7,481 nucleotides of DNA, from the IMG/VR virus record IMGVR_UViG_3300037558_002627, positions 1 through 7,481 of that record, one strand, 5' to 3'. Origin of the DNA: a virus. The notes under the pieces are model-generated. The model saw nothing but the letters and a program-made list of their open reading frames with translations. It was not told where the DNA came from and did no database searches. Shown here one piece after another: positions 1 to 7,481 of the stretch (within the stretch, counting starts at the first letter, position 1; every line of letters begins with the position of its first letter). The position numbers and the translations under genes were made by a program.

Positions 1-127
1 CATTATGCGAAGCCTAGGATGCACGGGAATGGCCTCACAGTGCCGCAGGCGGCGGGTTTACAAGCGGATTGTGGTTGGCGGTCTGCTGCACCGTTTCGCC
101 GGTCGACTCGCTACGCTCGCCACCGGC
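1..127. repeat. Left copy of the exact 127-nt terminal direct repeat (identical to 7355-7481); circular-contig overlap
   Basis: Base-by-base comparison shows 1-127 (cattatgcgaagcc...gctcgccaccggc) is identical to 7355-7481. Confidence 0.97.
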
Positions 128-3239: not shown

Positions 3240-3471
3240 GAGAATTACCCCTTATTGCGTTAAGTAGAGCCTTGGCGCCGAGCCCCACGCTGATCGGCAC
3301 GGCACAGACCGTGAACCCAGCAGCGAAGGCCTTGACCAAGGCAGGAACGTCCAACGTTTCGACGCTGAACGGCTCAGGCATGGGGTAAAGCATCCACATG
3401 CCGGAACAAGAAGGAGCGCCGTCAGCGAGGATGCTGACAGTGCCCTGGCATACGAGCGTTACGAGTTCCAT
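3232..3471 (-). CDS. 79-aa small protein with C-terminal hydrophobic segment (possible minor coat or morphogenesis protein)
   Basis: ATG at 3471 (the track start 3474 is TTG) overlaps the upstream stop as TGATG. C-terminal AFAAGFTVCAVPISVGLGAKALL. Stop overlaps the coat start. Pyrimidine-ending codon usage like its neighbours. Confidence 0.6.
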   Translation of the reverse strand: MELVTLVCQGTVSILADGAPSCSGMWMLYPMPEPFSVETLDVPALVKAFAAGFTVCAVPISVGLGAKALLNAIRGNSHG

Positions 3472-3677
3472 CAAAGAGCCTCACCAGGGAGACACTGGCC
3501 CCGCTCAGCGAACCAGCAGCCAGGCTGACCACAAGAACAGATCGAGGCCGAATGACAGTCATCGCAAACGCGAAAATCAGGCGCCGGAAGCACGTCAGGA
3601 GCGCATGCAGGCTGATTCCAAAGCTGGCCCAGGAAGGCGCCGCAGAGGTCGCAGAAGCAACGGTCTAGAACGATCAT
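3471..3677 (-). CDS. 68-aa cysteine-rich protein (10 Cys; CxCxxC ... CxxCH ... CxC; zinc-ribbon-like)
   Basis: ATG 3677 lies 12 nt after the gV-like stop, and its stop is coupled to orf79 (TGATG). Codon usage matches neighbouring genes. Cys at positions 7, 9, 12, 25, 38, 41, 47, 49, 54 and 62. Confidence 0.6.
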   Translation of the reverse strand: MIVLDRCFCDLCGAFLGQLWNQPACAPDVLPAPDFRVCDDCHSASICSCGQPGCWFAERGQCLPGEAL

Positions 3678-3689
3678 GGCGCCCTACCC

Positions 3690-4037
3690 TTAGCTGGCAG
3701 CCTGGACGGCAGCAGCAGGCGGCTTGATTTGCATCTGGACGGGCTTGCGGTCGCCAGACAGCCAGAGGTCGTAACCAGCGTTCCCGGCCTTGGATGCCCA
3801 CGGACCGACGCGTACAGGAAGGCTAACGGCCTTGCCTTTGAGCTGGTCGTAAAGGTGCTGGATACCAGCTTCTACATCAGCTTTGGACAGCTTGATGCCG
3901 ATAGTTTTGGTCTCCTGGATGCCGTACTGATTGGTGTCTTGCACCTCAAGCAGGATCAGGTTGTCAGTGAACTGGTTGTTTCCAACGGTACGAGTGTTGG
4001 CTTTGAAGCCGTGGCACAGGCCGGTGAGCAGTAGCAT
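3690..4037 (-). CDS. Putative ssDNA-binding protein (gV-like by position), 115 aa
   Basis: ATG 4037 has GAGAGG upstream. Highly biased (expressed-type) codon usage. Position downstream of gII. Ala/Pro/Gln-rich C-terminal tail, as I recall for Pf1 gV. I see no direct similarity to M13 gV. Confidence 0.55.
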   Translation of the reverse strand: MLLLTGLCHGFKANTRTVGNNQFTDNLILLEVQDTNQYGIQETKTIGIKLSKADVEAGIQHLYDQLKGKAVSLPVRVGPWASKAGNAGYDLWLSGDRKPVQMQIKPPAAAVQAAS

Positions 4038-4040
4038 GGT

Positions 4041-4265
4041 TTACACCTCTCGGGGGGAACGTTGGGCCGGCTGGCCCGGTTGGGTAATCAGGAAAACGAG
4101 CTTGGGAAAAGGCATCGCCCAACGGGCAGCAAGCTGGATAGCTTGGCGGCGAGAAAAGGGGCCGTAGCAGCAGTATTGATTGGCAACTAACCATTGGCCT
4201 TGACTGCGAACAGCAGAAACACCAGAGCGAGCAGCACGTTGTTTGAGGACACGAAGACGGTTCAT
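4041..4265 (-). CDS. 74-aa basic protein of unknown function wedged between gII and the gV-like gene
   Basis: Its ATG (4265..4263) shares its A with the gII TGA (TGATG coupling), and its TAA lies 3 nt before the gV-like ATG. NNY-rich codons like the flanking genes. This is the 3' part of track ORF 4041..4412. Confidence 0.45.
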   Translation of the reverse strand: MNRLRVLKQRAARSGVSAVRSQGQWLVANQYCCYGPFSRRQAIQLAARWAMPFPKLVFLITQPGQPAQRSPREV

Positions 4266-4606
4266 CAGGCAGCCTCCACCGAAGGTTCGACGTACCAGTC
4301 CGGGCGCTGGGCGGAGAAGTCGACCTGCACGAAGCGCAGAAGCGGCACCACGTTGCCCTTGTCCACCTCGTGCAGCTTCTGCAAGGCGGCTTTCGAGAGG
4401 CCTGCCTCGCAAATTTCCGTTACGTGACGGTAAAAGGTGCGCTTGGCCATCGACTGCATAGTCTCGTCCCAGCCGTAATCCTTGATGCTGCGATAGGTGC
4501 GGAACAGGTTCCGGGCGTGGGAGTCGTTGGGCTGGCCTTTCCGGTCGTACTTCATGTGGCGTTCGGTCAGTGCGGCCAGCACTTTTTCGTCATCAATCTG
4601 TTTCAT
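4265..4606 (-). CDS. gX: Nested in-frame gX-like product (113 aa from Met297 of gII)
   Basis: Internal ATG at 4606 is preceded by GAAGG with a 7-nt spacer. FEGMTMKQIDDEKVLAAL aligns with M13 FEGDSMNIYDDSAVLDAI, where pX initiates (from memory). Confidence 0.5.
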   Translation of the reverse strand: MKQIDDEKVLAALTERHMKYDRKGQPNDSHARNLFRTYRSIKDYGWDETMQSMAKRTFYRHVTEICEAGLSKAALQKLHEVDKGNVVPLLRFVQVDFSAQRPDWYVEPSVEAA

Positions 4607-5494
4607 CGTCATACCTTCAAAGGCCGCAAAAATTGGAGCTGTGACCGCCTGCCAGCACTCTTGAATGAAGCAACGGCCCTCAACTGCAAGGGCCTGCTGG
4701 TGCGCGATCAGATCAACAAGCCGCGACGAGACGCCGCGACGCTCGAGCCAGCGGTGCATGACCGTGGCCTCGAACCGGAGCAGGTTTTTCGAGTGCTCCA
4801 GCAAGAGAGGGTTGCCCAGCACCTTGGCAGTGCGAGCAGCGGAAAGATCACCCCGCCCTGCCCGCTTCGCGTCATCGAGCTGGCGAAGAAATTCGGGATG
4901 CTTCAGATAGGCTTTCAGGCGCTTGAGGCGCGATTCTTTGGCGCCCCAATAGGCCGTTGTCTGATAGTTGTCGCCGCGCGCCTTGGTGGTGCCGTTGGAG
5001 GTGCCGCGCAAGGCGTCGATTACCTGCTGTGCGGTCCGCTCGTTGGGCATGCGCGCGCTGTAGGTACAGTCAAGGGCGTACACCTGGGAAGCCGAAACAT
5101 CGAGCATGGCGAACAACTTGGGATAGCTACCGGCGATCCACTTGAGCATCACCAAGGCGCCCTTTTCGATACAGGTTGGGCCAAACACGTTGTGGCCCTG
5201 GAGCAGCTTCGCCGGGCTGGCCTTGATCTCGACGCCGGGCATAAGCCGCTTTCCTAACGACTCGTGGAAAACCTTGAAGGCCAGCGGCGTAAAGCCGGTG
5301 GACAAGGATTCCCACGCATGGCGCAGGTAGTCAGCCTGTAGGCTGCCGTTTTCGTCCCTGCTGATTTGGCCCTGGAGAGGAATTTCCAGCAATTCAAGGT
5401 CAAAGTAGTGGACCGGTTCGGCTCGACCATCGACGCCCAAAAGCCGGATGTGCTCCAGCTTGAAGGGTACGAAAAGGTGGATTTTGTCGAGCAC
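4265..5494 (-). CDS. gII: Rolling-circle replication initiator, Ff gene II family (Phage_CRI-type), 409 aa, GTG start
   Basis: Long blocks match my recollection of M13 gpII (410 aa): VEIKASPAKLLQGHNVFG vs VEIKASPAKVLQGHNVFG, YLKHPEF vs YLKHVEL, and NVVPLLRFVQVDFSAQRPDWYVEP vs NVVPLVRFINVDFSSQRPDWYNEP. The codon at 5494..5492 is GTG, with AGGGA 9 nt upstream. Confidence 0.93.
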   Translation of the reverse strand: MLDKIHLFVPFKLEHIRLLGVDGRAEPVHYFDLELLEIPLQGQISRDENGSLQADYLRHAWESLSTGFTPLAFKVFHESLGKRLMPGVEIKASPAKLLQGHNVFGPTCIEKGALVMLKWIAGSYPKLFAMLDVSASQVYALDCTYSARMPNERTAQQVIDALRGTSNGTTKARGDNYQTTAYWGAKESRLKRLKAYLKHPEFLRQLDDAKRAGRGDLSAARTAKVLGNPLLLEHSKNLLRFEATVMHRWLERRGVSSRLVDLIAHQQALAVEGRCFIQECWQAVTAPIFAAFEGMTMKQIDDEKVLAALTERHMKYDRKGQPNDSHARNLFRTYRSIKDYGWDETMQSMAKRTFYRHVTEICEAGLSKAALQKLHEVDKGNVVPLLRFVQVDFSAQRPDWYVEPSVEAA

Positions 5495-5528
5495 GCTGGA
5501 AAATCCCTGTGCAAAAGTGATGTTGGCT

Positions 5529-5647
5529 AAAAATCACAAATGATGTTTTGTGACTTTATAGCTGAATCACACATGACATTGCAACACATGCAAAAATCAC
5601 GTCTGTCGGAAATCACGAATGATGGCGGAGTGAAATCACAGAAAATG
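5529..5647. promoter_or_regulatory. Iteron/operator field: five direct (A/G)AATCAC repeats plus one inverted copy in the divergent gII / RHH intergenic region
   Basis: TCAC cores at 5534, 5567, 5597, 5613 and 5636. AAATCACAAATGATG (5531-5545) and AAATCACGAATGATG (5610-5624) are 14/15 identical. Inverted copy TTTGTGACTT at 5547-5556. Confidence 0.7.
5555..5584 (-). promoter_or_regulatory. Candidate sigma70 promoter for gII (TTGCAA - 18 nt - TATAAA on the minus strand)
   Basis: -35 at 5579-5584 and -10 at 5555-5560 (plus-strand tttata), about 60 nt upstream of the gII GTG. The -10 lies between two inverted TCAC-core repeats. Motif match only. Confidence 0.3.
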
Positions 5648-5836
5648 GCCAAGACCTACAGATTGCGCGACGAAGCCGTGGAAGCCCTGAACGCAAAGAG
5701 AATCAAGCTGATCGTCGAGCGGAAAGAAGACGTGAAGGAGAGCGATCTGCTGGGGGCTTTGATCTGGAAGCACCTATCGACGCTGACAGCGCAGGACGTC
5801 AAGGCGTACCGGGAAACAGTGTTGGGGAAAGACTGA
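5645..5836 (+). CDS. 63-aa ribbon-helix-helix (Arc/CopG-like) DNA-binding protein, candidate repressor
   Basis: MAKTYRLRDEAVEALNAKR...VKESDLLGALIWKHL fits a strand-helix-turn-helix RHH pattern. Divergent from gII. The track's 98-aa form (5540 start) would translate through the iterons. No good SD, so the start is uncertain or the transcript leaderless. Confidence 0.65.
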   Translation: MAKTYRLRDEAVEALNAKRIKLIVERKEDVKESDLLGALIWKHLSTLTAQDVKAYRETVLGKD

Positions 5837-6024
5837 TGATCTGGGCGCTAGTGATAGCGACAACCATAAACGGCCCCGGAATCGATGCGGCGCAGTTTGA
5901 AAGCCGAGAACAGTGCAGAAGAGCCGCACTGATCATCGGTGAGATGGCGTATAGGACGGCCGTTGAAAGGGGCGGCGATGAAGAAGCCGCCGACATATAT
6001 GCCAGATGCGAAAAGCGCGAATAG
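5836..6024 (+). CDS. 62-aa protein with hydrophobic N-terminus and two Cys, unknown function
   Basis: ATG overlaps the RHH stop (TGATG), with GGGGA SD 7 nt upstream. Rare-codon rich (ATA, AGA, AGG), unlike the structural genes. An antisense minus-strand ORF also exists here (see rejected list). Confidence 0.5.
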   Translation: MIWALVIATTINGPGIDAAQFESREQCRRAALIIGEMAYRTAVERGGDEEAADIYARCEKRE

Positions 6025-6072
6025 TGCCACCGTGGCACAAAAGTCCACCATTAGAGTAGGTGGACTCTGATC
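6024..6072 (-). other. Ff-type plus-strand origin of replication (nick hairpin plus adjacent palindrome)
   Basis: Minus strand reads AGTCCACC-TACTCTAAT-GGTGGACT-TTTGTGCCACGGTGGCAC. The f1 core, as I recall it, is AGTCCAC-GTTCTTTAATA-GTGGACT-CTTGTTCCAAACTGGAACA. The 8-bp stem is 6042-6049 / 6059-6066 and the palindrome GTGCCAC-C-GTGGCAC is 6024-6038. Same strand as gII. Confidence 0.75.
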
Positions 6073-6221
6073 CCTCCCCGGTGCCCGGTCGCGGCGCCAA
6101 AGAATCAAAGCATGGCTTCGCCACTGGCCGCTGCGCGCCCATCGCAAATGTGCGGGTGTACCTCACGCGCATGAAAGAGAACGCCAACTAGAGCGAAAAG
6201 CGGGTTGGACAGTGAAGGGGC

Positions 6222-6326
6222 GGTACCGAAAACCGAAATCCTGGACGAAAGCTGAAGGCGATTTTGGTACCGTTTAGCGTCGACGTAGATCCTGGCCGGG
6301 AGCAAGATGCCGGCGAAGGCGGTACC
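6222..6326. promoter_or_regulatory. GGTACC-core palindrome array B (3 sites: 6222, 6266, 6321)
   Basis: Sites flanked by A/T runs and preceded by GAAGG(G)CG. Spacings are 44 and 55 bp. The first site begins 3 nt after the stop of the 123-aa RHH gene. Confidence 0.65.
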
Positions 6327-6329
6327 AAA

Positions 6330-6701
6330 TCAGGTGCGACCCTGGCGATTCAGGCGCGCCAGGAAATGGTCCATAGACTCATCGGCCTGGGGCAAGGTCT
6401 CCGGCTCGACGTGGTGCCGCAAACGCAACGGCGCAGTCTCTTTGGGTTGGAAAATATCGCCCTGACTCGCCACCTCAGCGAGCTGAATCGCAGCGTCACG
6501 TGCTGCTGCCAGGGTCTGCTGGTAGACCTTGGCTTGTTGCTTCAGCTCAGCAATCTCAGAACGCGCATGGCGCAGGTCAGCATCAAGGCGCAACGCCTGG
6601 CGAGCTGCATCAGCGAACGCTTTCGACGCGACACGCTCACCGGTGAAGGCAAACATCTTGGCGGCCAATTCGTCGTCGGCCTGGAACTTGACTAGCGGCA
6701 T
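6330..6701 (-). CDS. 123-aa RHH-like + coiled-coil protein (P3), paralog of P1
   Basis: ATG 6701 has GGAG 8 nt upstream and lies 2 nt after the P2 stop. N-terminus is LVKFQA (strand) - DDELAAKMFAFT (helix) - G21 - helix. ADLRHAR (41-47) begins a heptad-like helix. C-terminal tail of about 45 aa. Confidence 0.7.
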   Translation of the reverse strand: MPLVKFQADDELAAKMFAFTGERVASKAFADAARQALRLDADLRHARSEIAELKQQAKVYQQTLAAARDAAIQLAEVASQGDIFQPKETAPLRLRHHVEPETLPQADESMDHFLARLNRQGRT

Positions 6702-6703
6702 AT

Positions 6704-6934
6704 TCAGCGCTCCGGAAAGGCAGATTCAAAGAGGTCACAAACATCGTCGTCCTGATCACCCGACCAACAACCAGCGGCGTGAAGGCCAGCGAGAAAGTCA
6801 CCGAGTCGAACGGGCGAGATCAATCCACGCTCAAGGTCAGAGCAGTAATCATCAAGGCGCTCAACAGCAAGATGGCGATCACCAAGAAGCTGAGTAACGA
6901 GAGTGCGAAGACGAGCAAGCCTTACAGGTACCAT
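6704..6934 (-). CDS. 76-aa acidic orphan protein (P2), net charge about -6, no Lys
   Basis: ATG 6934 has GGAG 7 nt upstream (the track start 7012 is TTG). The ATG is fused to a GGTACC site (ATGGTACC). Tightly coupled to P3. NNT-rich codons. I recognise no family. Confidence 0.6.
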   Translation of the reverse strand: MVPVRLARLRTLVTQLLGDRHLAVERLDDYCSDLERGLISPVRLGDFLAGLHAAGCWSGDQDDDVCDLFESAFPER

Positions 6935-7057
6935 TTTAGTACTCCAGGATGTTCTGCAGGTGACAACAATGGTACCAAAACCATCGAGAGACAGCAAGCG
7001 CTTTGGTACCAAAATATCAACCAGGTGATCGAGCTCGAGGACTAAAAAGGTACCTTT
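6927..7057. promoter_or_regulatory. GGTACC-core palindrome array A (4 sites: 6927, 6971, 7005, 7049) filling the P1-P2 gap
   Basis: Perfect 12-bp palindromes TTTGGTACCAAA (7002-7013) and AAAGGTACCTTT (7046-7057). Spacings are 44, 34 and 44 bp. The outer sites overlap the P1 stop codon and the P2 start codon. Confidence 0.7.
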
Positions 7058-7286
7058 ACAACTCAGAGATCTGTTGCGCGATCAGTCGAAGGCGTTCGAC
7101 CAGGGCATCAAGTTCGGCTCCCTCTTGCTCTTGGCCAGCGAGGCGACGGCGAGCATCGCGAAGATCTGCGAGCAAAACAGGGTACTGAGAAAGGATCCAC
7201 TCGACGGCATCGGAGCCCTTGCGCCCTGGGGCGTACAGCTCGGCATCGCGGATGAGGTAGGAAGGTAGATCGAGGGGCTGTCGCAT
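7056..7286 (-). CDS. 76-aa RHH-like + coiled-coil protein (P1), Mnt-like architecture
   Basis: ATG 7286 has AGGGG 5 nt upstream. PLDLPS (strand) - YLIRDAELYA (helix) - G21RKGS - DAVEWILSQY (helix), then ADLRDAR (40-46) ...LDALVERLRLIAQQISEL coiled coil. Same geometry as P3. Confidence 0.65.
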   Translation of the reverse strand: MRQPLDLPSYLIRDAELYAPGRKGSDAVEWILSQYPVLLADLRDARRRLAGQEQEGAELDALVERLRLIAQQISEL

Positions 7287-7367
7287 AACGGCCCCTATGT
7301 TACGCGACGCCCGGAGCTACGCCAGTGTCCGGACGCCGCTCAACATAAGGGCGGCATTATGCGAAGC
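7278..7367 (-). other. Two inverted dif-like XerC/XerD sites forming a long imperfect hairpin (candidate folded attP and/or packaging signal)
   Basis: Minus strand 7367->7338 reads GCTTCGCATAA-TGCCGCCC-TTATGTTGAGC. Plus strand 7278->7305 reads CTGTCGCATAA-CGGCCC-CTATGTTACGC. In-register pairing gives 20 of 25 positions between 7291-7315 and 7328-7352, plus 8 bp between 7281-7288 and 7357-7364. Confidence 0.6.
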
Positions 7368-7481
7368 CTAGGATGCACGGGAATGGCCTCACAGTGCCGC
7401 AGGCGGCGGGTTTACAAGCGGATTGTGGTTGGCGGTCTGCTGCACCGTTTCGCCGGTCGACTCGCTACGCTCGCCACCGGC
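7355..7481. repeat. Right copy of the terminal overlap; 7389-7481 re-reads the 3' end of gI (not a second gene)
   Basis: Identical to 1-127. The gI stop codon at 35-37 corresponds to 7389-7391. Confidence 0.97.

What the first reader, a model, noticed from the sequence alone, without database searches (positions are those of the whole stretch)
6222..7054. All seven GGTACC sites of the genome cluster in two phased arrays
GGTACC starts at 6222, 6266, 6321, 6927, 6971, 7005 and 7049. By my scan it occurs nowhere else in the 7.35 kb. For this base composition I estimate about 2 sites expected genome-wide and about 0.25 in this 830-bp span. Every site has A/T-run flanks (consensus about TTTGGTACCAAA), and two are perfect 12-bp palindromes. 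Spacings are 44 and 55 bp in array B and 44, 34 and 44 bp in array A, close to 4x, 5x and 3x 11 bp, which places the sites near the same helical face. Sites coincide with gene boundaries: the P1 stop codon, the P2 start codon (ATGGTACC), and 3 nt after the P3 stop. This is the signature of cooperative binding by a dimeric or tetrameric protein, as in operator, centromere-like or looping arrays. It is not explained by coding constraints.
Basis: seen in the sequence. Interest (0 to 1): 0.7.

Follow-up and report, generated by a model that had tools for sequence, protein, structure and literature searches.

The report
Binding-site arrays flanking a phage regulator gene
The seven GGTACC sites are real and are most likely the docking sites of the small DNA-binding protein encoded between the two clusters, part of an uncharacterised, portable protein-plus-sites cassette found in many Pseudomonas filamentous phages and phage satellites.

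Summary
GGTACC occurs seven times in the 7,354-bp circular inovirus genome (0.9 to 2.1 expected), only in two clusters. The clusters bracket the minus-strand genes P2 and P1.

Comparative data show the clusters are functional DNA elements tied to P1:
- Every relative of P1, down to 45% identity, keeps the arrays. The upstream array has four sites spaced 44-24/34-44 bp. The downstream array is spaced 55-44 or 44-44 bp.
- The family has 119 protein clusters, all unannotated. The core hexamer changes with the protein's N-terminal strand while the 44-bp spacing stays the same. K-x-x strands go with GGTACC, T-I/L-R with GCTAGC, Q-L-R with GGTAGC and Q-I-N with CATATG.
- I chose four proteins with unusual N-termini before looking at their DNA. 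All four had the same architecture, and two had new cores.
- Phages that have the P3 or 63-aa "repressor" homologues but lack P1 have no arrays.
- The cassette also sits in dsDNA P4-like satellites and plasmids of P. aeruginosa, which argues against an ssDNA-hairpin role.

Best reading: P1 is a ribbon-helix-helix-like protein with a long coiled coil, resembling TraM or omega. Its dimers or tetramers occupy the palindromes, probably to autoregulate. The biological role (regulation, episome maintenance or incompatibility) is unknown. Binding itself is inferred, not shown.

The parts
7049..7054 (.). Array A, site 1 (AAAGGTACCTTT), 1 nt after the P3 stop codon
   Evidence: The equivalent site is conserved in L007, L011, L012, L013, L022 and L023.
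7005..7010 (.). Array A, site 2 (TTTGGTACCAAA), 44 bp from site 1
6971..6976 (.). Array A, site 3. It lies 34 bp from site 2; the same gap is 24 bp in most relatives and 34 bp in L023, L048 and L050.
6927..6932 (.). Array A, site 4, 44 bp from site 3. It overlaps the P2 start codon. In relatives without P2 it abuts the AAAGGAG ribosome-binding site of the P1 homologue.
6321..6326 (.). Array B, site 1, 3 nt after the P1 stop codon
6266..6271 (.). Array B, site 2, 55 bp from B1. The 55-bp unit has a conserved centre, CTCCCGGCCAGGATCT.
6222..6227 (.). Array B, site 3, 44 bp from B2
6330..6701 (-). P1, 123 aa, the proposed binder. It has an N-terminal strand-helix-helix (MPLVKFQADD...), a long helix (residues 27-83), a disordered linker and a conserved C-terminal helix (ESMDHFLARLNR). 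It matches phrog_8031 (unknown function).
6704..6934 (-). P2, 76 aa, an orphan gene inserted between site A4 and P1. It is present only in this subclade and is under purifying selection.
7056..7286 (-). P3, 76 aa, phrog_13909. It is a distant paralogue of the P1 family and is usually the gene upstream of array A. It is not correlated with the arrays.
7019..7026 (.). Second motif, ACCAGGTG (CACCTGGT on the minus strand), between sites A1 and A2
6944..6948 (.). CCAGG between sites A3 and A4
6981..6988 (.). CCATCGAG (CTCGATGG on the minus strand). This motif is conserved between sites 2 and 3 in all specificity classes.
6291..6295 (.). CCTGG (CCAGGATCT on the minus strand) within the B1-B2 unit
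6240..6244 (.). CCTGG within the B2-B3 unit

Best explanation
The two GGTACC clusters are the cognate DNA sites of P1, the 123-aa protein encoded between them. Together they form a self-contained cassette: array A, then P1 (here preceded by P2), then array B.

P1 is most likely a ribbon-helix-helix-type protein. The N-terminal strands of a dimer would pair and read one 8-bp palindrome (T-GGTACC-A) in the major groove. The long helix (residues 27-83) would join dimers into higher oligomers, so that sites held exactly 44 bp apart are occupied together.

Array A fills the whole gap between the upstream gene and the ribosome-binding site of the regulator gene. The immediate effect is therefore probably control of the cassette's own transcription. 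Array B, at the 3' end of the gene, would be a second anchoring point or a roadblock facing the convergent repressor operon.

Status of each step:
- Shown by comparison: the sites, their spacing, their dependence on the P1-family gene, and the co-variation of the core with the N-terminal domain.
- Inferred: the RHH fold, oligomerisation, autoregulation and any A-B bridging.
- Open: the cellular role. Candidates are a regulatory switch, maintenance or segregation of the episomal form, or an incompatibility/heteroimmunity determinant.
For: 1. Conservation. P1 homologues at 74%, 72%, 67% and 45% identity (L007, L008, L013, L011), plus L012, L022 and L023, keep GGTACC arrays. Spacing is 44-24-44 (or 44-34-44) upstream and 55-44 downstream, while the spacer sequences diverge.

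2. Same architecture, different core. The GCTAGC class has A = 44-24-44 and B = 44-44 in more than 25 loci. Phage silverpheasant213 uses GATAGC/GCTATC.

3. Prospective test. I picked proteins with unseen N-termini and then read their DNA.
   - MLIKIPDADD: TGGTACCA, 44-34-44.
   - MLVKLNPDDD: TGGTACCA, 44-34-44.
   - MLVQLRDFPED: GGTAGC, upstream sites about 44 and about 24 bp apart (site 4 degenerate).
   - MIVQINVSSD: TCATATGA, 44-32-44.
   All cores have the form NNTANN.

4. Specificity tracks the N-terminal 43 residues, not the coiled coil. The L022 coiled coil is 29/41 identical to a GCTAGC-class protein, but its N-terminus is 24/43 identical to P1 and its sites are GGTACC.

5. Co-occurrence is 44/47 versus 1/11. 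L010 is a deletion that lost the gene and keeps one site.

6. Sites inside coding sequence occur in different frames.

7. AF2 models show residues 1-9 extended, a helix at 10-20, a loop ending in the invariant Ser26, then one long helix. Mean pLDDT is 75.6 and 85.9.

8. There are weak but repeated hints of the FitA RHH: Pfam E = 0.033-0.14 and Foldseek 2bsq at rmsd 2.9 A over 42 columns.

9. Depositors of phage 36-2 labelled the homologue 'DNA-binding protein 7NUV-like'. The 7NUV code appears in the paper that reports the crystal structures of the pLS20 Aux2 tetramerisation domain, a TraM analogue (PMC8829557).

10. TraM is a precedent. It uses RHH dimers on 5-6-bp palindromic motifs, a strand lysine contacts guanine, Ser residues at the N-terminus of helix 2 contact the phosphate backbone, tetramerisation gives about 500-fold higher affinity, it represses its own promoter, and plasmid alleles differ in specificity (PMC3159463).
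Against: - No binding experiment exists.
- The RHH assignment fails every significance threshold. There is no Pfam, NCBIfam or PDB sequence hit and no significant Foldseek hit.
- No sigma-70 promoter consensus was found in or near array A, so autoregulation is unproven.
- A 44-bp centre-to-centre distance is far larger than in known RHH arrays (7-12 bp). No structure explains how it would be measured.
- A second motif (CCWGG, centred 14-18 bp from the cores) is conserved in all classes and is not explained by P1 binding.
- Array B is missing in some relatives (L015, L050).
- The loci are phylogenetically related, so counts overstate independence.
Confidence: 0.72

Rival explanations
1. The arrays are single-strand DNA structures of the filamentous phage, such as a packaging signal or minus-strand origin. 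The palindromes would pair with each other to form long imperfect hairpins in the packaged strand.
For: Array A has overall dyad symmetry. As ssDNA it folds better than dinucleotide shuffles (z = -3.07). It also folds better than controls with fixed cores and shuffled spacers in all 20 loci tested (z from -2.0 to -5.6).
Against: - Predicted pairings are inconsistent between relatives: nested 1:4 and 2:3 in some, 1:2 plus 3:4 in others.
- Array B folds no better than shuffles (z = -0.92) and has an odd number of sites.
- Each site is itself a palindrome, which a hairpin does not require.
- The extra stability is accounted for by the extended palindromic flanks and the CCWGG palindromes.
- Related phages such as 97-1 and 42-1 lack the whole module.
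- The cassette, with 44-bp spacing intact, sits in dsDNA P4-like satellites and plasmid pHS87b.
- A hairpin model does not explain the co-variation with the protein's N-terminus.
Confidence: 0.06
2. The sites are bound by another factor and P1 is only a neighbour. Candidates are P3, the 63-aa RHH-like 'repressor' (5648-5836), the Rep protein (as iterons), or a host protein.
For: P3 is a paralogue of the P1 family (hhalign probability 93%) and usually lies next to array A. The 63-aa protein's homologue is annotated as a repressor in phage 97-1. The conserved CCWGG motif suggests that at least one further factor reads these regions.
Against: - P3 is present without arrays (L004, L010, L017-L021), and arrays are present without P3 (L033, L051, L052, L053-L057).
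- The 63-aa homologue and a Rep gene with 75% nucleotide identity occur in phage 97-1, which has no GGTACC.
- Arrays persist next to unrelated repressors (HTH_3 in L012 and L013) and unrelated replicons (the P4-type primase).
- A host factor cannot explain at least four core types within one host genus that track the P1 N-terminus.
Confidence: 0.1
3. The cluster reflects restriction-modification biology or chance. GGTACC, GCTAGC and CATATG are classic type II palindromes and could be methylation or decoy sites, or a recently acquired segment with different composition.
For: All cores are 6-bp palindromes that are also known restriction sites. Other palindromes are enriched in the spacers: CTGCAG 15-fold, CTCGAG 15-fold and GGATCY 26-fold.
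Against: - The exact 44-bp spacing is conserved in more than 40 loci.
- There is no methyltransferase or nuclease in the cassette, and no PADLOC hit.
- The core type follows the adjacent protein's N-terminus.
- Chance is excluded.
Confidence: 0.02

Closest known systems
TraM of F-like plasmids and its Gram-positive analogue Aux2 of pLS20
   Same: - Small protein with an N-terminal RHH-type DNA-reading module followed by a long helical oligomerisation domain.
- Each dimeric head reads a short palindromic motif (GANTC, or A(G/C)CG(G/C)T in F).
- Several sites are grouped in arrays, and TraM represses its own promoter.
- Alleles differ in DNA specificity through the N-terminal domain (PMC3159463; PMC8829557).
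- Depositors annotated the phage 36-2 homologue as '7NUV-like'.
   Different: - There is no detectable sequence or Foldseek similarity.
- There is no oriT, relaxase or TraD partner. The context is inoviruses and P4-like satellites.
- Motifs are 44 bp apart, not 12 bp.
- Two arrays bracket the protein's own gene.
RHH centromere-binding and global repressor proteins of plasmids: omega of pSM19035, ParG of TP228, ParR/parC of R1 (from general knowledge)
   Same: RHH dimers bind cooperatively to arrays of short repeats placed at their own promoter. These arrays act as both operator and centromere. Specificity diversifies between related replicons. An omega-like RHH protein has been noted after zot in the Pseudomonas inovirus PMBT54, and its authors suggested a role in episome maintenance (PMC10534721).
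   Different: - Known arrays are contiguous repeats of 7-11 bp, whereas these sites are isolated palindromes 24-55 bp apart.
- No ParA or ParM partner gene is present in the window or in the relatives.
- P1 carries a roughly 57-residue helix that those proteins lack.
Arc, Mnt, MetJ and FitA RHH repressors
   Same: They share the strand-helix-helix pattern, a Ser at the N-cap of helix 2, palindromic operator sub-sites (the MetJ met-box is an 8-bp palindrome repeated in tandem), and use in phage regulation. The only, weak, database hints are to FitA.
   Different: All hits are below threshold. Those operators are compact (about 20 bp, or tandem 8-mers). None has a long coiled coil or flanking double arrays.
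NTPase-independent plasmid stability proteins: StbA/stbDR of R388, Par of pSK1, KfrA of RK2 (from general knowledge)
   Same: One DNA-binding protein, in Par and KfrA with a coiled coil, plus a repeat array next to its own gene forms a portable maintenance cassette on small episomes.
   Different: Their DNA-binding domains are HTH-type and their repeats are contiguous. No stability phenotype is known for the P1 family.

Membership tests
Ribbon-helix-helix (Arc/MetJ) superfamily | N-terminal beta-strand followed by two helices, with a G-x-(S/T) N-cap on helix 2 | tested here: met
   AF2 models show residues 1-9 extended, a helix at 10-20, a loop, then a helix from residue 25/27. Ser26 is invariant and Ala28 nearly invariant across 44 diverse members.
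Ribbon-helix-helix (Arc/MetJ) superfamily | Significant profile or structural match to a known RHH family | tested here: inconclusive
   The best hits are Pfam FitA-like_RHH at E = 0.033 and 0.14, below the curated cut-off, and Foldseek FitA 2bsq at E = 6.7, rmsd 2.9 A over 42 columns. There are no RHH hits in the PDB profile searches.
Ribbon-helix-helix (Arc/MetJ) superfamily | Intertwined dimer whose paired strands read the major groove | not testable with these tools
   Only monomer prediction was available. Indirect support is that the core hexamer co-varies with strand residues.
TraM/Aux2-type relaxosome accessory proteins | RHH head plus C-terminal helical tetramerisation domain | tested here: inconclusive
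   A long helix is predicted with pLDDT above 90. Pfam gives only coiled-coil-type weak hits. The oligomeric state is unknown. There is no sequence or Foldseek match to TraM or 7NUV. The '7NUV-like' label comes from the depositors.
TraM/Aux2-type relaxosome accessory proteins | Sites lie in an oriT next to a relaxase, and the protein couples to a T4SS coupling protein | tested here: not met
   The window is a complete inovirus (Rep of the Phage_CRI family, G5P, coat proteins, Zot) with no relaxase or T4SS genes. Relatives sit in inoviruses or P4-like satellites.
Type Ib/II partition systems (ParG, omega, ParR plus centromere) | Repeat array at the promoter of the operon, bound by the RHH protein encoded there | tested here: inconclusive
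   Array A fills the gap immediately upstream of the gene and its ribosome-binding site in all relatives. No promoter was identified and binding is not shown.
Type Ib/II partition systems (ParG, omega, ParR plus centromere) | Adjacent ParA- or ParM-type NTPase gene | tested here: not met
   There is no such ORF in the window or in the fetched contexts.
Type Ib/II partition systems (ParG, omega, ParR plus centromere) | Contiguous repeats of 7-11 bp | tested here: not met
   The sites are isolated 8-bp palindromes at 24/34/44/55-bp centre-to-centre spacing.
Type II toxin-antitoxin module with an RHH antitoxin | Conserved adjacent toxin gene | tested here: not met
   P2 is present only in the window, L006 and L023 subclade. 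Most family members stand alone between the arrays. P2 has no family hit.
Rep iterons or origin repeats | Repeats co-occur with the cognate initiator | tested here: not met
   Phages 97-1 and 42-1 share the Rep gene (74-75% nucleotide identity). 97-1 has no GGTACC and 42-1 has a single isolated site outside any array. Arrays also occur beside a P4-type primase replicon.

The most novel reading that the evidence does not exclude
The cassette could be a new kind of NTPase-independent maintenance, incompatibility or heteroimmunity determinant for small Pseudomonas episomes (inovirus replicative forms, P4-like satellite plasmids).

In this reading an RHH-headed coiled-coil protein acts as a rigid molecular ruler. 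It reads palindromes set exactly 44 bp apart and bridges the two arrays that bracket its own gene. Exchangeable N-terminal heads (GGTACC, GCTAGC, GGTAGC and CATATG types) would define mutually non-interfering groups. A second factor, still unidentified, would read the invariant CCWGG motif 14-18 bp from each core.
Probability: 0.2. Interest if true: 0.8.

Novelty: new variant of a known kind. Interest (0 to 1): 0.66.

Why it matters
- **An unannotated family gets a function.** The family has 119 clusters at 90% identity with no Pfam, NCBIfam, PADLOC or PHROG function. It is present in Pseudomonas and Stutzerimonas inoviruses. One member is on record in 449 index blocks of the assembly collection, and the places shown are in P. 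aeruginosa chromosomes. The analysis gives it a concrete, testable role: a sequence-specific DNA binder with known sites.

- **A natural recognition-code series.** Strand residues pair with outer base pairs of NNTANN cores on a constant scaffold. This is directly usable for specificity-swap experiments.

- **A spacing rule with no structural precedent.** The invariant 44-bp spacing, with variation only in steps of about one helical turn (24/34, 44/55), has no counterpart among RHH proteins.

- **Possible relevance to phage carriage.** Pseudomonas filamentous phages influence biofilm and virulence. A cassette that controls their gene expression, episome maintenance or mutual exclusion could matter for phage carriage and for engineering.

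Tried and rejected
- **Near-identity DNA search of phage records.** It found only a 47-bp hairpin match. The distant search found only Rep-region relatives that lack the module.
- **tblastn of P1 against phage records.** No match.
- **Family and sequence searches for P1, P2 and P3.** Pfam, PHROGs, NCBIfam and PADLOC gave nothing informative beyond phrog_8031 and phrog_13909, both of unknown function. PDB sequence and profile searches gave only coiled-coil noise.
- **Foldseek of both AF2 monomer models against the PDB.** Nothing significant.
- **Sigma-70 promoter scan of 5500-7481.** No site found. My manual attempts to place -35/-10 boxes in array A across the classes were unconvincing and I dropped them.
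- **First genome-collection scan with a 7-sequence P3 alignment.** It was redone with 4 sequences.
- **An 8-mer array detector.** It was too strict because the flanks vary. It was replaced by a hexamer detector.
- **ssDNA-hairpin model.** Tested and judged secondary.
- **IHF-site reading of the sequences next to CCWGG.** I checked this by eye against WATCAANNNNTTR and rejected it.
- **A-to-B loop phasing.** Distances of 265-606 bp show no common helical phase, so a phase-locked loop is not supported.
- **Literature searches.** Searches for the phage names, the motif TGCTAGCA, and inovirus RHH proteins found no description of this cassette.
Full report
**1. The observation**

GGTACC occurs exactly seven times, at 6222, 6266, 6321, 6927, 6971, 7005 and 7049. 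Dinucleotide-preserving shuffles give 0.90 on average and never reach 7 in 200 trials. Base composition alone predicts 2.1.

The window is a circularly permuted genome with a 127-bp terminal redundancy, so the unit length is 7,354 bp. The chance that seven random sites fall within 833 bp is about 1.5e-5 (analytic) to 4e-5 (simulation).

The stated spacings and the two perfect 12-bp palindromes are correct. Three small corrections apply:
- The site next to P3 lies 1 nt after its stop codon.
- The site next to P1 lies 3 nt after its stop codon.
- A/T flanks are a tendency, not a rule.

**2. What the window is**

It is a complete filamentous phage. The minus strand carries:
- Rep (Phage_CRI plus G2P_X_C, 4265-5494);
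- a G5P-like ssDNA-binding protein;
- coat genes;
- Zot (35-1219).

Its Rep region is 74-75% identical in nucleotides to P. aeruginosa phages 97-1 and 42-1. Relatives found later come from Pseudomonas and Stutzerimonas stutzeri.

Read on the minus strand, the region of interest runs as follows:
- Zot;
- a dif-like attP;
- P3 (7286-7056);
- array A, four sites (7054-6927);
- P2 (6934-6704);
- P1 (6701-6330);
- array B, three sites (6326-6222);
- about 200 bp of non-coding DNA;
- then, convergently transcribed, a 62-aa ORF and a 63-aa protein whose homologue in phage 97-1 is annotated as a repressor;
- Rep.

**3. Relatives keep the arrays**

P1 belongs to a small, unannotated family (14 clusters with the single-sequence search). 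I read the loci that encode homologues of 86, 74, 72, 67 and 45% identity, plus L012 and L022. Every one has GGTACC arrays at the same places.
- Upstream there are four sites spaced 44-24-44 (44-34-44 in the window and L023). The first site follows the P3 stop and the fourth abuts the AAAGGAG ribosome-binding site.
- Downstream there are sites spaced 55-44.
- The spacers between sites have diverged. The cores and the distances have not.

P2 exists only in the window's own subclade. There it is under purifying selection: 17 synonymous against 4 non-synonymous codon changes relative to L023. It is therefore an insertion between site 4 and P1.

**4. Same architecture, other cores**

P3 homologues led to loci in which the central gene is a more distant relative.
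- The coiled-coil part is conserved (…ARDAAxxLxExxGQGDMF).
- The N-terminus is different.
- The repeated core is GCTAGC, or GATAGC/GCTATC in phage silverpheasant213.
- The spacing is identical: 44-24-44 upstream and 44-44 downstream.

A profile search then defined a family of 119 clusters. All are 'hypothetical' and none has a relevant Pfam domain (two carry unrelated precomputed hits). More than 25 further loci from viral and metagenomic contigs showed the same pattern.

Across all fetched loci, 44 of 47 that encode a family member have one hexamer recurring at exactly 44 bp at least twice. Of 11 loci without a family member, 10 do not. These loci are related to each other, so the counts are not independent events.

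**5. The core follows the protein's N-terminal strand**

The pairing of N-terminus and core is as follows:

| N-terminal strand | Core |
|---|---|
| MPLVKFQ, MLIKFE, MLIKIP, MLVKLN (Lys at the same strand position) | GGTACC |
| LLTIRDV, LLTLRDV, TITIRDP, VITIRNP (Thr-x-Arg) | GCTAGC |
| MLVQLRD | GGTAGC |
| MIVQINV | CATATG |

The MLIKIP, MLVKLN, MLVQLRD and MIVQINV cases were a prospective test. I chose the proteins for their unusual N-termini before looking at their DNA.

All cores have the form NNTANN. Only the outer two base pairs change.

Domain shuffling separates the two halves of the protein. L022 has a coiled coil that is 29/41 identical to a GCTAGC-class protein and 20/41 identical to P1. 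Its N-terminal 43 residues are 24/43 identical to P1 and 8/43 identical to the GCTAGC class. Its sites are GGTACC.

**6. The constraint is on DNA, not protein**

In long-tailed variants (L008, L011, L033, L044, L048) the 55-bp pair of array B lies inside the gene, in the disordered linker.
- GGTACC is translated as V-P in one copy and G-T in the other.
- GCTAGC is translated as L-A and A-S.
- In the short GCTAGC-class proteins the stop codon TAG is itself inside site B1.

**7. Excluding other binders**

- P3 occurs without arrays (blackswan219-1, L010, L017-L021).
- Arrays occur without P3 (L033, L051, phage 36-2, the P4-like elements).
- The 63-aa protein and Rep have close relatives in phage 97-1, which has no GGTACC.
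- Arrays persist next to unrelated repressors (HTH_3) and unrelated replicons.

**8. What P1 looks like**

AF2 gives an extended N-terminus (residues 1-9), a helix at 10-20, a short loop and one long helix (27-83). A disordered linker and a short conserved C-terminal helix follow. The GCTAGC-class model is the same without the tail (pLDDT 85.9).

Ser26 at the start of the long helix is invariant. This is the strand-helix-helix pattern of RHH proteins, with the second helix extended into a coiled coil.

Database support is weak:
- Pfam FitA-like_RHH at E = 0.033-0.14;
- Foldseek FitA at rmsd 2.9 A but E = 6.7;
- nothing in the PDB sequence searches.

The depositors of phage 36-2 called the homologue 'DNA-binding protein 7NUV-like'. 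That code appears in the paper that reports the crystal structures of the pLS20 Aux2 tetramerisation domain. Aux2 is an analogue of TraM (PMC8829557).

TraM is the closest mechanistic precedent (PMC3159463):
- RHH heads sit on 5-6-bp palindromic motifs.
- A strand lysine contacts guanine.
- Serines at the N-terminus of helix 2 contact the phosphate backbone.
- Tetramerisation gives about 500-fold higher affinity.
- It represses its own promoter.
- Plasmid alleles differ in specificity.

P3 is a distant paralogue of the P1 family (hhalign probability 93%, E = 2.9e-7 over 72 columns).

**9. The single-strand rival**

Array A is dyad-symmetric and folds well as ssDNA (z = -3.07). It also folds better than controls with fixed cores and shuffled spacers in all 20 loci.

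Several points count against a hairpin role:
- The predicted pairings differ from locus to locus.
- Array B does not fold better than chance.
- The extra stability is what one expects from extended palindromic sites (T-core-A with A/T flanks) and from the CCWGG palindromes.
- The cassette, with 44-bp spacing intact, is present in dsDNA P4-like satellites. These occur integrated in P. aeruginosa chromosomes and as the 11.2-kb plasmid pHS87b.

I therefore rate a purely ssDNA function as unlikely.

**10. What remains unexplained**

- **A second motif.** CCWGG, often as CACCWGGT or CCAGGATCT, lies 14-18 bp from the core centres in all classes. It is 4.3-fold enriched inside the arrays (69 observed against 16 expected). 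CTGCAG, CTCGAG and GGATCY are enriched 15- to 26-fold. CTCGATGG is conserved between sites 2 and 3. Something else probably reads these sequences.
- **No promoter found**.
- **The 44-bp rule has no structural explanation.** Variation occurs only in steps of about one turn (24/32/34, and 44/55). This argues for a face-of-helix constraint, but the sites are not on one face at 10.5 bp per turn.
- **A-to-B distances (265-606 bp) share no phase.**

**11. Verdict**

The sites are best explained as the cognate arrays of P1, an RHH-like coiled-coil protein, within a portable gene-plus-sites cassette.

In kind it resembles TraM, omega and ParR-type systems. It fails their membership tests: no relaxase, no NTPase, non-contiguous sites, and no sequence match. 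I file it as a new variant of a known kind.

Its biological role is open. Autoregulation is the most economical first step. The diversification into specificity classes, and the presence on elements with an episomal phase, make an incompatibility, immunity or maintenance function worth testing.

Noticed in passing
window 7282-7366 (and its continuation at 1-12 through the terminal redundancy): There are two dif-like sites in inverted orientation: TCGCATAA-CGGCCCC-TATGTTACG, and the reverse complement of TTCGCATAAT-GCCGCCC-TTATGTTGAG. They are separated by a roughly 33-nt hairpin-forming spacer. This is the layout of the CTX-phi-type attP, which folds in ssDNA for XerCD integration. The P3 start codon (7286-7284) lies inside one XerC-type arm. 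The same layout is seen in L011, L012, L013, L033 and phage 36-2. L012 and L010 look like integrated prophages next to a host dif-like half site.
   Followed up: partly
window 1-127 and 7355-7481: There is an exact 127-bp terminal redundancy. The window is a circular genome of 7,354 bp opened inside the attP/Zot junction.
   Followed up: yes
window 6704-6934 (-): P2 is a 76-aa orphan with no family hit anywhere. It is present only in this subclade (window, L006, L023). It is clearly under purifying selection (17 synonymous against 4 non-synonymous codon differences versus L023). It is wedged between operator site A4 and P1, and its stop lies 2 nt before the P1 start.
   Followed up: partly
window 6240-6244, 6291-6295, 6944-6948, 7019-7026; all related arrays: A class-independent second motif, CCWGG (CACCWGGT or CCAGGATCT), sits 14-18 bp from the core centres. 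CTGCAG, CTCGAG, GGATCY and CTCGATGG are also strongly enriched in the spacers. It is not strictly P3, because loci without P3 keep them.
   Followed up: partly
L008 306-366; L011 749-809; L033 1755-1815; L044 611-671; L048 about 1762-1820: In long-tailed homologues the 55-bp pair of array B lies inside the coding sequence of the disordered linker and is read in different frames (V-P and G-T, or L-A and A-S). The 55-bp unit keeps a conserved centre, CTCCCGGCCAG, whether it is coding or non-coding.
   Followed up: yes
window 7056-7286 (-) versus 6330-6701 (-): P3 (phrog_13909) is a distant paralogue of the P1 family (hhalign probability 93%, 72 aligned columns). Its N-terminal strand carries Pro and Asp/Glu instead of basic or polar residues. 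It may be a non-DNA-binding partner or modulator.
   Followed up: partly
L053 (PP003922 vB_Pae_U10) 3438-3883; L054-L057; L059 (plasmid pHS87b): A GCTAGC-class cassette lies just downstream of the primase/helicase genes of a P4-like satellite of P. aeruginosa. It has a half array A (two sites 43 bp apart), the gene, and a full array B (44-44). The satellite also carries an integrase, Ogr/Delta and a P2-type capsid gene. It is found integrated in many chromosomes (the protein is on record in 449 index blocks of the assembly collection) and as an 11.2-kb circular plasmid.
   Followed up: partly
window 6043-6065 and about 6105-6160: The hairpin GTCCACC-ATTAGAGTA-GGTGGAC lies within the only stretch that is more than 90% identical to another deposited phage (5a-DAzarov). 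A block (ACCCGCACATTTGCGAT...GTGGCGAAGCCATGCTTT on the minus strand) is also recognisable in L011 and L012. Both are candidates for origin or packaging elements.
   Followed up: no
L004 (MZ474489 blackswan219-1) 6536-6615; L018 3703-3775: After the P3 homologue these phages carry a different module. Two copies of AGTAACGTTACCATAA, 63 bp apart, lie upstream of two minus-strand genes. This looks like another operator-regulator pair occupying the same genomic slot.
   Followed up: no
L058 (P. nitroreducens plasmid pPniHBP1_2) 1-8285: Tandem inovirus prophage copies carrying the cassette are integrated in a 128-kb plasmid. Tandem arrays are expected for CTX-type integration.
   Followed up: no
L002 (PQ758391 Pseudomonas phage 5a-DAzarov): The record is filed under Caudoviricetes, although its 7.3-kb genome encodes a G2P-type replication protein and aligns with inovirus Rep regions. 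This is probably a taxonomy error in the record.
   Followed up: no
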